Below the pieces are notes generated by a model, which ran no database searches, was not told where the DNA came from, and saw only the letters and a list, made by a program, of their open reading frames with translations. The position numbers and the translations under genes are program-made. 45,074 nucleotides of DNA from a phage. The DNA lies in NCBI GenBank assembly GCA_028473545.1, contig GCA_028473545.1_4546.1; one strand, given 5' to 3'. Shown here piece by piece: positions 1 through 45,063 of this stretch (its first letter is position 1; every line of letters begins with the position of its first letter).

Positions 1-8
1 AAAAAAAA

Positions 9-35
9 AGCGCCGAGGCAAAATGCGACGGCGCT
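9..35 (-). terminator. Hairpin followed (on minus strand) by a T9 run; possible rho-independent terminator at window edge
   Basis: agcgccg (9-15) pairs with cggcgct (29-35), 13-nt loop; plus-strand A9 at 1-9 becomes a 3' T-tract on the minus strand. Large loop makes this weak. Confidence 0.25.
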
Positions 36-105
36 AACCAATAAGAGACAATGAGACGTGATTATTATTACACGCGTGCGCGCCCGTTTCAATATACAAA
101 AGGAG

Positions 106-134
106 TTGACACCCCGCATTTTTAGGTGTAGTTT
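106..134 (+). promoter_or_regulatory. Sigma70-like early promoter (rightward)
   Basis: TTGACA at 106-111, 17-nt spacer, TAGTTT at 129-134; about 30 nt upstream of RBS caggag and ATG at 166. The string TTGACACCCCGCAT is shared with the leftward promoter at the window end. Confidence 0.45.
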
Positions 135-165
135 CATTGGTCATTAACCAACAGGAGACTGAATT

Positions 166-495
166 ATGAATATCAAAGAAGCAATTGAAGTGTTATCTAA
201 TGCAATCCGCGGCGAAGCGGGTAAATCCTGGTATTACACAAATGCGGTGGATACTCTGTTATTTGAAGTGTCCAGATTATCGCGTGCTGAGAAGGAGCTT
301 ACCGCGAAGCTGGAATTGCTCAACGGCACGGCAGCAAGCAAGCTGCAAAAACACAATGAAGAAATGGAAGAATACAAAAAGCAGGTTATCCGTTTGCGCG
401 ACGAGGGCAAGTCCTGGGCGATGATTGCCGAGTTGACCGGAATTAATCAGAGCACCGTGCGCTCCTGGGTACGCAATAATAAAACTTCTAAGTAA
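166..495 (+). CDS. Small DNA-binding protein with C-terminal helix-turn-helix (putative early transcriptional regulator)
   Basis: 109-aa ORF with RBS caggag before the ATG; C-terminal GKSWAMIAELTGINQSTVRSWV resembles an HTH; first gene downstream of the rightward early promoter. Confidence 0.55.
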   Translation: MNIKEAIEVLSNAIRGEAGKSWYYTNAVDTLLFEVSRLSRAEKELTAKLELLNGTAASKLQKHNEEMEEYKKQVIRLRDEGKSWAMIAELTGINQSTVRSWVRNNKTSK

Positions 496-2852: not shown

Positions 2853-3058
2853 ATGCAGTTTTATTGCATAAAGTAAGCGGGACAAAAAGCGGGACAGACA
2901 GGGGCGGGACAAAGCGGGACAGCACCCCTGTCCCGCCCCGGATGGCGCGGCTTGCGGGGGAGCGGGACAGGCGGGACAAACCCCAGTCTTTCAGACTAGA
3001 CGGGGGTCAGTTGGCCCCCCTCGTCTGAGACTGCATAAAATCCGGGATTGCATAATGT
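2853..3058. repeat. Iteron module A: GCGGGACA octamer array, GC-rich hairpin and paired TGCATAA boxes
   Basis: Direct GCGGGACA copies at about 2877, 2889, 2904, 2914, 2962, 2971 and an inverted TGTCCCGC at about 2929; imperfect hairpin 2981-3033 (agacggggg..cccccctcgtct); TGCATAA pairs at 2853-2873 and 3036-3056. Noncoding. About 170 bp is near-identical to 20700-20870. Confidence 0.7.
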
Positions 3059-3185: not shown

Positions 3186-3232
3186 ATATTGGTTGCATTC
3201 AGCCTGGCACCCTGCTAGATTGGTTGCACACC
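3186..3232 (+). promoter_or_regulatory. Promoter-like region with two ATTGGTTGCA boxes upstream of the 3250 gene
   Basis: ATTGGTTGCAT then 17-nt spacer then TAGATT, followed by a second ATTGGTTGCACACCAACAAGAGG directly before the RBS and ATG at 3250. Confidence 0.35.
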
Positions 3233-3249
3233 AACAAGAGGATTGAACA

Positions 3250-6394: not shown

Positions 6395-6433
6395 TTGACT
6401 TGCAACCAACATAGAGGCCATACTGCAACCAAT
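6395..6433 (+). promoter_or_regulatory. Promoter-like element with two TGCAACCAA boxes
   Basis: TTGACT at 6395-6400, CATACT about 18 nt downstream; TGCAACCAA at 6401-6409 and 6424-6432. Confidence 0.35.
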
Positions 6434-14607: not shown

Positions 14608-14922
14608 TTAGTTAAACTTGATGTTGCCACCGATGGAGGTTAAGCGAGCGCATACTGCTTCAACGGCATCAACGCACATGAAATCGTTAAAGGCTTCGAC
14701 CAGGGCGTTGATGAAAGATGCCGGAACCAGACCACAAGCCGGATTATCGAAGGTTGCGGAATTGATCGCAGCTTTCGCAGCTTCAGTAGCGTTCATGCTC
14801 TGGCACAGATTCAGCGCTTCAGCGTTACGCATCGCGTGAAAGGTAAAGGTATTGGCAACGGCAGCTTTATTGAAACGGGTCATTGCTGCATCTACTGGAG
14901 TTGCTACGGTCATGTTATTCAT
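14608..14922 (-). CDS. Hypothetical protein (about 104 aa), island gene 3
   Basis: Start taken at MNNMTV with aaggaaaac RBS; an upstream ATG at 14937 is possible. Confidence 0.45.
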   Translation of the reverse strand: MNNMTVATPVDAAMTRFNKAAVANTFTFHAMRNAEALNLCQSMNATEAAKAAINSATFDNPACGLVPASFINALVEAFNDFMCVDAVEAVCARLTSIGGNIKFN

Positions 14923-14944: not shown

Positions 14945-14975
14945 TTGGTGTGCAACCAATATAGTGCAACCAATA
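14945..14975 (-). promoter_or_regulatory. Tandem ATTGGTTGCA boxes in the divergent intergenic region
   Basis: On the minus strand ATTGGTTGCActatATTGGTTGCACACCAACAGAG lies immediately upstream of the island start codon; the last 18 nt match the leader of the 3250 gene. Confidence 0.4.
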
Positions 14976-20544: not shown

Positions 20545-20942
20545 GAAGCGGGACAAGCGGGACGTCCCGATCTGTCCCGTTTTGCCCCGCCCCCGGTAAA
20601 ACTGCATATCTACTCACTTTCATTGCATAAACTCAAAGCGGGACAAGCGGGACGTCCCGATCTGTCCCGCCCCCTAAATATGCATACCTATTCAGATTTC
20701 GTGCATAAAACAAACGGGACAAAAAGCGGGACAAACAAGGGGCGGGACAAAGCGGGACAGCACCCCGTCCCCGTCAGTGCTGCCGCGGGTTTCAGCCGAT
20801 CGGGACAGGCGGGACAACTCCCAGTCTTTCAGACTAGACGGGGGTCAATGGCCCCCCTCGTCTGAGACTGAATAAGGTTTGTTTGAAATTCGCTGATACA
20901 ATGTCAATCGGCAACTGCATAAAAAAAGGGGACTGCATAATG
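20545..20942. repeat. Iteron module B: GCGGGACA array with GGGACGTCCC palindromes, GC-rich hairpin and paired TGCATAA boxes
   Basis: Two 35-bp direct repeats (20546-20580, 20637-20671); GCGGGACA copies at about 20714-20759 and 20801-20816; hairpin 20819-20870; TGCATA(A) pairs at about 20602/20624, 20680/20703 and 20916/20934, the last overlapping the tape-measure ATG. Confidence 0.7.
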
Positions 20943-33818: not shown

Positions 33819-33842
33819 GTGCAACCAACCTATTGGTTGCAA
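33819..33842. promoter_or_regulatory. Palindromic pair of ATTGGTTGCA boxes
   Basis: TGCAACCAAcctATTGGTTGCA inverted repeat in the gap between two minus-strand genes. Confidence 0.35.
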
Positions 33843-44453: not shown

Positions 44454-44972
44454 TTAATCTTCTAATTCGAAATACGTTTCTACGATTTCTTTTAAATCTT
44501 TGTGGAAGTCTTCGACGTCGTCATCTTCCAGCTTGGCGACGGATTTAATTTCGAACGCTTCCAGCAGATCATCAAATTCGTCGTTTGCGTCGTCGTCATC
44601 TCCGCCCGCAATAATAGCGGCATACTGTTTGATTTCGTCGCGCATTTCTTTAAGCGGATCGGCATCTTTCTTGCCTTTGCCTTTCGCCGGTGCTTTCTTA
44701 GATTTCGCCGGGGCTTCTTCCTCGTCCGCGTCGTCGTCTTCTTCTACGGCTTCTTTCTTAGCCTTGCCCTTTGCGGGCGCTTTTTTGGTCTTTGCCGGGG
44801 CTTCGTCTTCAGCATCGTCATCTTCGGCTACTTCTTCTTTCGCCTTGCCCTTTGCCGGGGCTTTCTTCGCTTCCTGTTTACCAACGGCAGCGCCAGCAGT
44901 TTCATAATGCTTAGCGATGGTTTCCAGTGCTACAACGCCGCGAGTGATCAGGTTTACGATTTGCTCAAACAT
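44454..44972 (-). CDS. Highly charged tandem-repeat protein (alternating K/A/P-rich basic and D/E-rich acidic blocks)
   Basis: 172 aa; three copies of APAK.KKAPAKGKAKKE followed by acidic runs; ggaga RBS; first gene downstream of the leftward early promoter. Confidence 0.55.
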   Translation of the reverse strand: MFEQIVNLITRGVVALETIAKHYETAGAAVGKQEAKKAPAKGKAKEEVAEDDDAEDEAPAKTKKAPAKGKAKKEAVEEDDDADEEEAPAKSKKAPAKGKGKKDADPLKEMRDEIKQYAAIIAGGDDDDANDEFDDLLEAFEIKSVAKLEDDDVEDFHKDLKEIVETYFELED

Positions 44973-45033
44973 GGTATATCTCCGATTGGTTAATTTTAAG
45001 TGTTCGGTGCGGTATGCCCCGTCAACGAGGTGA

Positions 45034-45063
45034 ATAATAGATTGGTTGCATGCGGGGTGTCAA
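45034..45063 (-). promoter_or_regulatory. Sigma70-like early promoter (leftward)
   Basis: Minus strand TTGACA (45063-45058), 18-nt spacer containing TGCAACCAAT, TATTAT (45039-45034); about 55 nt upstream of the ATG at 44972. Confidence 0.45.

What the first reader, a model, noticed from the sequence alone, without database searches (positions are those of the whole stretch)
1..165. Divergent early promoters at the two window ends share the string TTGACACCCCGCAT
The rightward promoter (106-134) and the leftward promoter at the other end (minus strand, 45063-45034) both begin TTGACACCCCGCAT, i.e. the -35 hexamer plus the first 8 spacer nt are identical. The leftward one also carries a TGCAACCAAT box in its spacer. 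If the genome is circular or circularly permuted, the two lie about 130 bp apart and form one divergent early control region, with the A9-plus-hairpin at 1-35 between them. The conserved 8 nt beyond the -35 suggests a shared operator rather than chance.
Basis: seen in the sequence. Interest (0 to 1): 0.45.

Follow-up and report, generated by a model that had tools for sequence, protein, structure and literature searches.

The report
Divergent early promoters, coincidental shared 14-mer
The two ends of this phage genome join into an ordinary divergent early control region; the identical 14 bases at its two promoters are a coincidence of this one genome, while the conserved parts are a small RNA-like unit between the promoters and a repeated GCAACCAAT box.

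Summary
The window is a complete, circularly permuted Dhillonvirus (HK578/SO-1-like E. coli siphophage) genome. Its ends are contiguous in relatives, so the two elements lie in one ~270-bp divergent region. The 14-mer TTGACACCCCGCAT is present exactly as described. In 29 usable junction haplotypes only TTGACA(CC) is conserved. The next six bases vary freely and independently at the two promoters: 0 mismatches only here, otherwise 1-6. The proposed operator is therefore not supported; those bases are ordinary promoter spacer, held in length but not sequence. Three other things are conserved. (1) Both sigma-70-type promoters. (2) A near-invariant unit between them on the minus strand: a third promoter (TTGAAA-17-TGtAATAAT, 92-64) followed by a hairpin plus U9 intrinsic terminator (35-1) with two compensatory stem changes, predicting a ~55-nt RNA. 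(3) The GCAACCAAT box: 15 exact copies against 0.5 expected, overlapping several promoter-like sites. A related inverted repeat, TTGGT-N5-ACCAA, sits just after the -10 of the rightward promoter and of two other promoter-like sites. This box is the better candidate for a shared operator. All functions are inferred; no transcript data were found. The region is ordinary in kind, with two undescribed but conventional elements.

The parts
45034..45063 (-). Leftward early promoter PL: -35 TTGACA (45063-45058), 18-nt spacer, -10 TATTAT (45039-45034). It drives the replication/recombination operon that starts at 44972.
   Evidence: 11/12 consensus match, the best in the genome. In relatives the -35 is TTGACA or TTGACT, the -10 is TATTAT, TATCAT or TAATAT, and the spacer is 17-18 nt.
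45041..45050 (-). TGCAACCAAT box inside the PL spacer, ending 1 nt before the -10; candidate operator.
   Evidence: Invariant in all 29 usable haplotypes. It is one of 15 exact GCAACCAAT copies, against 0.5 expected.
45050..45063 (-). Left copy of the 14-mer TTGACACCCCGCAT (-35 hexamer plus 8 spacer nt).
   Evidence: The last 6 nt vary among relatives.
1..35 (-). Intrinsic terminator read on the minus strand: interrupted hairpin 35..9 (7 + 3 bp) followed by U9 (9..1).
   Evidence: Fold of -16.7 kcal/mol, z = -3.55. All 10 pairs are kept in 5 haplotypes, with 2 compensatory changes and 1 G-U change. The U-run is 8-14 in relatives. WF5505 and CS16 annotate a terminator here.
36..57 (-). Predicted unstructured 5' part of the small RNA (GUCUCAUUGUCUCUUAUUGGUUA). 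On the + strand it reads TAACCAATAAGAGACAATGAGAC and contains an AACCAAT box variant (36-42).
   Evidence: Invariant in 27 of 29 usable haplotypes. Unpaired in the fold.
64..92 (-). Middle promoter Pmid: -35 TTGAAA (92-87), 17-nt spacer, extended -10 TGtAATAAT (72-64). The predicted start near 57 gives a ~55-nt RNA.
   Evidence: 10/12 plus TG. The HK578 GenBank record annotates a promoter at the homologous site. The -10 hexamer is invariant and the -35 nearly so (TTGAAA in all but two haplotypes). The only variable, indel-prone patch in the block is 58-63, around the predicted start.
106..134 (+). Rightward early promoter PR: -35 TTGACA (106-111), 17-nt spacer, -10 TAGTTT (129-134). It drives the HTH gene (166-495) and the helicase-primase gene (506-2770).
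   Evidence: The -35 is invariant. The -10 is TAGTTT, TAGATT or TAGTAT. Spacer length stays at 17 (16 in one haplotype) while 8 spacer positions vary. HK578 annotates a promoter at this site.
137..151 (.). Inverted repeat TTGGT-CATTA-ACCAA starting 2 nt after the PR -10 (about -4 to +11); candidate operator.
   Evidence: One of only 3 such repeats in the genome, all directly after a -10-like hexamer and before a Shine-Dalgarno sequence. Near-invariant in relatives that carry the 109-aa HTH allele.
166..495 (+). First rightward gene: a 109-aa protein with a C-terminal helix-turn-helix; candidate box-binding regulator (inferred only).
   Evidence: Pfam HTH_23 5.6e-07, Sigma70_r4_2 1.4e-06, HTH_28 4.4e-06; PHROG 9366.
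44454..44972 (-). First leftward gene: a 172-aa highly charged protein of unknown function. Its ribosome-binding region is TTAACCAATCGGAGATATACCATG (44993-44970).
   Evidence: The ribosome-binding sequence is conserved in 29 of 31 loci.

Best explanation
The window ends join into the divergent early control region of a virulent Dhillonvirus. Host sigma-70 RNA polymerase starts leftward at PL (replication/recombination genes) and rightward at PR (HTH protein, helicase-primase). The 14-base identity is -35 hexamer plus a conserved CC plus six unconstrained spacer bases that happen to match in this mosaic genome; it is not a binding site. Two conserved elements lie in or beside these promoters. 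First, a third promoter (Pmid) between PL and PR reads leftward into a strong intrinsic terminator that ends 11 bp upstream of the PL -35. This should release a ~55-nt RNA with a 22-nt invariant single-stranded 5' region, and should stop Pmid transcription from running through PL. Second, the GCAACCAAT box in the PL spacer and the related inverted repeat TTGGT-N5-ACCAA just after the PR -10 belong to a genome-wide set of boxes that overlap promoter-like sites. The most likely role is an operator for a phage DNA-binding protein that represses or times these promoters. Shown: sequence, contiguity, conservation pattern, box enrichment, hairpin covariation. Inferred: transcription starts, existence of the RNA, box function, identity of the binding protein.
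For: Contiguity. GC skew changes sign at the window ends, as expected for divergent transcription. Non-conservation of the 8 nt; Hamming table (0 only in the window; 1 in SP1, 2 in rolling, 3-6 elsewhere). Promoters: hexamers and spacer length are conserved and spacer sequence is not. HK578 and CHD5UKE2 carry a different downstream gene allele but keep TTGACA-17-TAGTAT. Three promoters are annotated at these sites in HK578. Small RNA unit: Pmid scores 10/12 plus TG. Of the four matches at 10/12 or better in the genome, the two that are not inside genes are PL and Pmid. Terminator fold z = -3.55, with 2 compensatory pairs and 100% pairing. The block is more conserved than the flanking genes: the HTH protein is about 76-80% identical in roughly two thirds of relatives. 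Indels break the only + strand ORF frame. Boxes: 15 exact GCAACCAAT copies against 0.51 expected, maximum 3 in 200 Markov shuffles; 25 against 12.2 at one mismatch, reached by 0 of 100 shuffles. Five of 30 promoter-like sites overlap boxes. Footprints at two other promoter-like sites show boxes and hexamers invariant with the rest of the spacer variable. Boxes are kept in rolling, HK578 and SO-1 and lie at syntenic positions in Klebsiella phage VLCpiS11a.
Against: There are no transcript, start-site or binding data; no Dhillonvirus transcriptome was found. The PR -10 matches only 3/6 and fails the scan threshold. Genome-wide, promoter-like matches are no more frequent than in shuffles, so individual calls rest on conservation. 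Hairpin covariation comes from one lineage only, and 24 of 500 shuffles equal it. Because the whole central block is invariant, promoter hexamers cannot be separated from other constraints such as a DNA-level protein site. Box positions and orientations relative to the -10 differ between sites, which fits repression better than activation but proves neither. Outgroup phages with the same gene order lack the hairpin and U-run.
Confidence: 0.72

Rival explanations
1. One reading: the 8 nt after each -35 (CCCCGCAT) are a shared operator bound by an early phage protein that co-regulates both promoters.
For: Exact 14-nt identity at both promoters. Four close relatives (window, SP1, rolling, WF5505) have similar spacers on both sides, with 0-3 mismatches.
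Against: The six bases after TTGACACC are among the least conserved positions of the region. The two sides do not co-vary in 29 usable haplotypes. The sequence has no dyad symmetry. Its other copies in the genome (17198, 20534, 13153, 25517) are not next to TTGACA.
Confidence: 0.04
2. The ~55-nt RNA from Pmid is a trans-acting antisense regulator. Its 5' region pairs with the ribosome-binding regions of the first gene of each divergent operon (UAACCAAUCGGAGAU on the left, UAACCAACAGGAGAC on the right) and represses their translation.
For: Among 56 ribosome-binding regions, the two best ungapped matches to the RNA's 5' region are exactly the two neighbouring first genes, with 15 and 14 pairs covering the Shine-Dalgarno sequence. 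Duplex energies are -18 to -21 kcal/mol. The left target is conserved in 29 of 31 loci. The RNA has the usual layout of a base-pairing sRNA: a free 5' region, an A/U-rich stretch, a hairpin and a long U tail.
Against: Shuffled versions of the 5' region reach 15 or more pairs in 17% of trials. With bulges allowed the two targets rank only 9th and 10th. The right-hand target's Shine-Dalgarno part varies in most relatives, leaving about 7 pairs. In the one lineage where the RNA changed (L006/L034), cognate pairing is no better than non-cognate pairing. The complementarity may simply come from a shared AACCAAY DNA motif plus Shine-Dalgarno-like sequence.
Confidence: 0.15
3. The invariant block 1-92 acts at the DNA level (a protein-binding platform, replication or packaging signal, or UP-like element for PL), and the promoter and terminator resemblances are incidental.
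For: The whole block is conserved, not only the hexamers and the stem. It contains an AACCAAT box variant. The T-run lies about -48 to -56 from the PL start, where an UP element would sit (inference from coordinates). It lies next to the replication genes.
Against: The conservation pattern fits a transcription unit: the variable patch is at the predicted start, stem changes are compensatory, other changes fall in the internal loop, and run length is free. Better origin candidates exist elsewhere: GCGGGACA iteron arrays at 2877-2978 and 20548-20816, which the SO-1 record annotates as repeat regions.
Confidence: 0.15
4. Pmid plus the terminator is a leader or attenuator for the leftward operon. 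Most transcripts stop, and conditional read-through (antitermination) adds a second, timed input into the genes downstream of PL, as at lambda PR'-tR'.
For: Pmid and PL point the same way, with the terminator between them and ending 11 bp before the PL -35.
Against: The leftward genes are replication functions that already have the strongest promoter in the genome. No antiterminator-like gene or alternative anti-terminator fold was seen. The long U-run and stable stem predict efficient termination.
Confidence: 0.07

Closest known systems
Promoter annotations in the GenBank record of Escherichia phage HK578 (NC_019724)
   Same: The homologous 170-bp stretch carries three annotated sigma-70 consensus promoters at the sites called here PL, Pmid and PR. 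WF5505 and CS16 annotate the terminator.
   Different: Those are consensus-match annotations with no RNA product, operator or box described. HK578 has a different rightward gene allele, lacks the inverted repeat, and its 14-mers differ at 6 positions.
Lambda-type divergent early control (PL/PR with operators bound by CI/Cro)
   Same: Two divergent early sigma-70 promoters. Repeated short boxes overlap the core promoters. The first rightward gene encodes a small HTH protein.
   Different: This is a virulent phage with no repressor/integrase module. The boxes are scattered at about ten sites around the genome rather than forming two tripartite operators. Binding has not been shown. The resemblance is functional only.
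Small phage RNAs made from their own promoter and intrinsic terminator (lambda oop RNA, P22 sar RNA)
   Same: A short (50-80 nt) transcript from a constitutive-looking sigma-70 promoter, ending at a hairpin plus U-run, placed in the early regulatory region next to replication genes. This comparison is from general knowledge.
   Different: oop and sar overlap their targets on the opposite strand (cis-antisense). This RNA overlaps no gene or known transcript. There is no sequence similarity and no Rfam match.
Phage phi29 early/late switch (protein p4 at divergent promoters A2b/A2c/A3)
   Same: A lytic phage in which a small early DNA-binding protein binds repeated boxes overlapping closely spaced divergent promoters. 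This comparison is from general knowledge.
   Different: No homology was tested or expected, the box sequence is different, and no late promoter is identified here.

Membership tests
Sigma-70 promoter (PL, PR, Pmid) | -35 and -10 hexamers close to TTGACA/TATAAT with 16-18 bp spacing | tested here: met
   PL 11/12 with an 18-nt spacer. Pmid 10/12 plus TG with a 17-nt spacer. PR has -35 6/6, -10 3/6 (TAnnnT kept) and a 17-nt spacer, which is below the scan threshold.
Sigma-70 promoter (PL, PR, Pmid) | Hexamers and spacer length conserved among relatives while spacer sequence drifts | tested here: met
   29 usable haplotypes. The same pattern is seen at two other promoter-like sites.
Sigma-70 promoter (PL, PR, Pmid) | Mapped transcription start site | not testable with these tools
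   No transcriptome for this genus was found in the paper library.
Operator shared by two promoters (claimed for CCCCGCAT) | Sequence conserved, or co-varying at both sites, across related genomes | tested here: not met
   The left and right 14-mers differ at 1-6 positions in every haplotype but the window, and the alleles assort independently.
Operator shared by two promoters (claimed for CCCCGCAT) | Dyad symmetry or recurrence at other regulated promoters | tested here: not met
   The sequence is not palindromic, and its other copies are not beside promoter hexamers.
Operator (GCAACCAAT box and TTGGT-N5-ACCAA repeat) | Over-represented, conserved, and overlapping core promoter elements | tested here: met
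   15 copies against 0.51 expected. Invariant at PL and at P3250 and P6395. Overlaps 5 of 30 promoter-like sites. The inverted repeat occurs 3 times, each just after a -10-like hexamer.
Operator (GCAACCAAT box and TTGGT-N5-ACCAA repeat) | Bound by a specific protein with a regulatory effect | not testable with these tools
   The candidate is the HTH protein at 166-495. No informative solved homologue was found.
Rho-independent terminator | G+C-rich hairpin followed directly by a U-run on the transcribed strand | tested here: met
   7 + 3 bp stem and U9 on the minus strand, -16.7 kcal/mol, z = -3.55. The + strand has no U-run after the hairpin.
Rho-independent terminator | Stem maintained by compensatory substitutions | tested here: met
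   2 pairs changed on both sides and 1 changed to G-U, with 100% of cells paired. This rests on a single divergent lineage, and 24 of 500 shuffles equal it.
Trans-acting base-pairing sRNA | Complementarity to targets beyond chance, maintained in evolution | tested here: inconclusive
   The top two of 56 ribosome-binding regions are the two flanking first genes. However, the shuffle p is about 0.17, there is no co-evolution, and the right-hand target erodes in relatives.
Known RNA family (Rfam) | Covariance-model match at the gathering threshold | tested here: not met
   No match in the whole window. Only sub-threshold noise in 1-400.

The most novel reading that the evidence does not exclude
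A virulent siphophage encodes, between its two divergent early promoters, a ~55-nt RNA whose invariant 5' region pairs with the Shine-Dalgarno regions of the first gene of both early operons. One small RNA would then throttle both arms of early expression after transcription. The GCAACCAAT boxes would form a second, transcriptional layer acting on most promoters of the genome.
Probability: 0.13. Interest if true: 0.55.

Novelty: new member of a known kind. Interest (0 to 1): 0.27.

Why it matters
As stated, the finding is ordinary. Divergent early sigma-70 promoters are standard in phages and were already annotated by consensus in HK578, and the eye-catching 14-mer is not functional. The check did yield a concrete regulatory map for Dhillonviruses, a genus common in E. 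coli phage collections and therapy candidates, for which I found no published study of transcription. The map has three promoters, a predicted small RNA, and a conserved genome-wide box that marks most likely promoters. It gives direct targets for dRNA-seq, Northern blots and footprinting, and useful guidance for engineering these phages (where insertions can go without breaking control elements).

Tried and rejected
- **Known RNA families and tRNAs.** Rfam on the whole window and a permissive scan of 1-400 found no family. The tRNA/tmRNA scan found none.
- **Small + strand ORF 51-125.** It is preceded by a Shine-Dalgarno-like AAGAG. I rejected it as coding because relatives carry +1/-1 indels that change the frame while the nucleotides stay conserved.
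- **Minus-strand 36-aa ORF 34-144.** It overlaps two promoters and was not pursued.
- **Co-evolution of the small RNA and its targets.** The one divergent lineage (L006/L034) shows none.
- **Exact search for the RNA core.** One genome per bacterial species gave 0 hits, so there is no prophage copy. The metagenome scan gave 85 hits, mostly chance 17-mer matches; 11 were true Dhillonvirus junctions and one (L075) is an adapter chimera.
- **Literature.** Searches for Dhillonvirus promoters, transcriptomes or sRNAs and for the box sequence found nothing relevant.
- **Solved structures.** A PDB sequence search with the two flanking proteins was uninformative.
- **Outgroup phages.** VLCpiS11a and Shemara share the divergent gene order but have no hairpin or U-run, so they add no covariation.
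- **The ~135-bp insert in the leftward leader of HK578-type relatives.** It has no Rfam hit, and its fold is no better than shuffles.
- **Sigma-54 or MerR-type readings of the box.** I considered both and dropped them. The GG/GC spacing does not fit sigma-54, and the spacers are 17-18 nt rather than over-long.

Full report
**Observation.** The string TTGACACCCCGCAT is present exactly twice, at 106-119 on the + strand and 45063-45050 on the minus strand. TGCAACCAAT sits in the leftward spacer, and A9 plus a hairpin occupies 1-35.

**Identity and contiguity.** Both window ends match about 155 phage records, nearly all Escherichia or Shigella phages of the genus Dhillonvirus (HK578, SO-1, SSL-2009a, EP23 and others).
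- In WF5505 the window's last base maps to 41906 and its first to 41908. In SP1 they map to 41380 and 41381.
- The same junction lies at very different coordinates in other records, and the SO-1 record is circular.
- The window is therefore a whole, circularly permuted genome, and its ends are neighbours.
- The intergenic region between the leftward gene (start 44972) and the rightward gene (start 166) is 267 bp. The two -35 hexamers are 116 bp apart.
- GC skew changes sign at the window ends and again near 30-31 kb, as expected for two arms transcribed away from this point.
- Annotation transferred from phage rolling shows that the leftward arm holds the exonuclease, DNA polymerase, helicase and methylase genes. 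The rightward arm starts with a small HTH protein and the helicase-primase, followed by lysis and structural genes.

**Is the 14-mer an operator?** I collected the junction from GenBank records, IMG/VR contigs and metagenome contigs. This gave 30 distinct haplotypes, 29 of them usable; L075 is an adapter chimera.
- At the rightward promoter, TTGACACC is essentially invariant. The next six bases read CCGCAT, CTGCAA, ATGCAG, CTGCGG, TTGCGG, GTGCAG, AGTTTG and others.
- At the leftward promoter the -35 is TTGACA or TTGACT, followed by CCCCGCAT, CCCCGCCT, CCCATCCT, CCC-TTCT, CCTCACAT and others.
- The left and right 14-mers are identical only in this window. They differ at 1 position in SP1, 2 in rolling, and 3-6 in the other 26 haplotypes.
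- The left allele of the window recurs in rolling with another right allele, and the right allele recurs in SP1 with another left allele.
- The leftward first gene is 100% identical to that of rolling, while neighbouring genes are about 81% identical. The window is therefore a mosaic that happens to combine two matching spacers.
- Spacer length is held (17 at PR in all but one haplotype, 17-18 at PL) while the sequence is free. That is how a promoter spacer behaves, not an operator.
- CCCCGCAT has no dyad symmetry, and its other copies are not next to promoter hexamers.
- The operator interpretation is not supported.

**The promoters.**
- PL (TTGACA-18-TATTAT) is the best consensus match in the genome at 11/12.
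- PR (TTGACA-17-TAGTTT) fails the scan because its -10 matches only 3/6. Its -35 is invariant and the TA...T frame of its -10 is kept.
- HK578 and CHD5UKE2 carry a different downstream gene allele but keep TTGACA-17-TAGTAT at the same place.
- The HK578 GenBank record already annotates three consensus promoters here.
- Genome-wide, promoter-like matches are no more frequent than in shuffled sequence. Individual calls therefore rest on conservation and position, not on the scan.

**A conserved unit between the promoters.** The stretch from the PL -35 to the PR -35 is the most conserved part of the region. It is nearly invariant in all haplotypes, although the adjacent HTH protein is only about 76-80% identical in roughly two thirds of relatives. 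Read on the minus strand, it contains:
- TTGAAA-17-AATAAT preceded by TG (92-64), scoring 10/12 plus an extended -10;
- a short patch (58-63) that is the only variable, indel-prone part of the block;
- 22 invariant bases (57-36);
- a hairpin (35-9) and a U-run of 8-14.

The hairpin folds at -16.7 kcal/mol, z = -3.55. Across five distinct versions all ten pairs are kept, two through changes on both sides and one through A-U to G-U. The remaining substitutions fall in the internal loop. The covariation comes from one lineage only, and 24 of 500 shuffles equal it, so it is supportive rather than conclusive.

On the + strand no U-run follows the hairpin, so the terminator works leftward only. The only transcript it can sensibly end is one starting at Pmid, which predicts a ~55-nt RNA. 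The terminator ends 11 bp upstream of the PL -35, so it would also keep Pmid transcription from running through PL.

The + strand ORF 51-125 is not coding, because relatives carry frame-changing indels with conserved nucleotides. No Rfam family matches. The core sequence is absent from bacterial genomes. Two outgroup phages with the same gene order, VLCpiS11a and Shemara, lack the hairpin.

**What might the RNA do?** Its free 5' region is complementary to the ribosome-binding regions of both flanking first genes.
- In an ungapped comparison with 56 ribosome-binding regions, these two rank first and second, with 15 and 14 pairs covering the Shine-Dalgarno sequence.
- The left target is conserved in 29 of 31 loci.
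- Against this, shuffled 5' regions reach 15 pairs in 17% of trials.
- With bulges allowed the two targets rank 9th and 10th.
- The right target's Shine-Dalgarno part drifts in most relatives.
- The one lineage with a changed RNA shows no compensating change in the targets.
- I keep this as a minority hypothesis.

**The real repeated element.**
At one mismatch it occurs 25 times against 12.2, a level reached by none of 100 shuffles.
- It is the third most frequent 9-mer in the genome. Almost all copies are in intergenic gaps, often as pairs 12-35 bp apart.
- Five of the 30 promoter-like sites overlap boxes: PL, 6395-6424 (+), 14987-14958 (-), 33842-33813 (-) and 42304-42276 (-).
- The related inverted repeat TTGGT-N5-ACCAA occurs exactly three times. 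Each copy lies directly after a -10-like hexamer and before a Shine-Dalgarno sequence: at PR (137-151), before gene 3250 (3220-3234), and before a gene at about 14913 on the minus strand that phage rolling does not annotate (14945-14959).
- Footprints at P3250 and P6395 show the boxes and hexamers invariant and the rest of the spacer variable.
- The boxes are kept in rolling, HK578 and SO-1. They also lie at syntenic positions in Klebsiella phage VLCpiS11a, which belongs to another subfamily.
- Their positions and orientations relative to the -10 differ between sites. That fits an operator blocking RNA polymerase better than an activator site or a promoter element.
- A natural but unproven candidate for the binding protein is the product of 166-495, which has a C-terminal helix-turn-helix (Pfam HTH_23, Sigma70_r4_2, HTH_28). 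The alternative allele in HK578 keeps the HTH segment.

**Comparison with known systems.** In kind, the region resembles lambda-type divergent early control and the phi29 early/late switch. The small unit resembles stand-alone phage RNAs such as oop or sar, but it does not overlap a target and shares no sequence with them. None of these is a membership claim. The promoter positions are already in the HK578 record. I found no description of the RNA or of the box.

**Verdict.** The region is an ordinary divergent early control region. It contains two conserved, conventional and so far undescribed elements. Interest is low to moderate.

Noticed in passing
window 2877-2978 and 20548-20816: Two paralogous arrays of GCGGGACA iterons (six direct copies plus one inverted in each), each followed by a shared ~60-bp segment (CAGTCTTTCAGACTAGACGGGGGTCA.TGGCCCCCCTCGTCTGAGACTG). 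One array lies right after the helicase-primase gene, the other in the 710-bp gap before the tape-measure gene. The SO-1 GenBank record marks the homologous stretch after the helicase-primase gene as repeat 'region B' and notes that it resembles a 'region A'. They are probable replication origins.
   Followed up: partly
window 14608-14913 (-): An ORF of about 100 aa (MNNMTVATPVDAAM...) that phage rolling does not annotate. It has a good Shine-Dalgarno sequence, a TTGCAA-18-TATATT promoter, two GCAACCAAT boxes and the inverted repeat upstream.
   Followed up: partly
window 44454-44972: The charged-protein gene is 100% identical to that of phage rolling, while the flanking genes are only about 80-82% identical. 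This is a sharp mosaic boundary next to the control region.
   Followed up: no
L032 (HK578) 1345-1480, absent from the window: Most Dhillonviruses carry an extra ~135 bp in the leftward leader, between PL and the charged-protein gene. The window's subclade lacks it. It has no Rfam hit and no unusual fold.
   Followed up: partly
window 44970-44993 (-): The leftward ribosome-binding region TTAACCAATCGGAGATATACCATG resembles, from memory, the phage T7 gene 10 leader (TTTAACTTTAAGAAGGAGATATACATATG). The TAACCAA next to the Shine-Dalgarno sequence could therefore be a translational enhancer rather than, or as well as, a DNA box. Not tested.
   Followed up: no
L123 (Klebsiella phage VLCpiS11a) 1945, 4712, 5078, 5243: GCAACCAA(C/T) boxes occur in a phage of a different subfamily (Guernseyvirinae). 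They lie in the leftward leader, at the end of the helicase-primase gene and in the gap after it, so the motif is older than the genus.
   Followed up: partly
L075 (metagenome contig OQVL01056812.1): This contig joins Dhillonvirus sequence to an Illumina adapter (AGATCGGAAGAGCGTCGTGTAGGGAAAGAGTGT) inside the hairpin. It is an assembly chimera and was excluded from the counts.
   Followed up: yes
window 33820-33841: A perfect 9-4-9 palindrome, TGCAACCAA-CCTA-TTGGTTGCA, made of two boxes facing each other. It overlaps a TTGCAA-18-TATAGT promoter-like site at the junction of two leftward genes.
   Followed up: no
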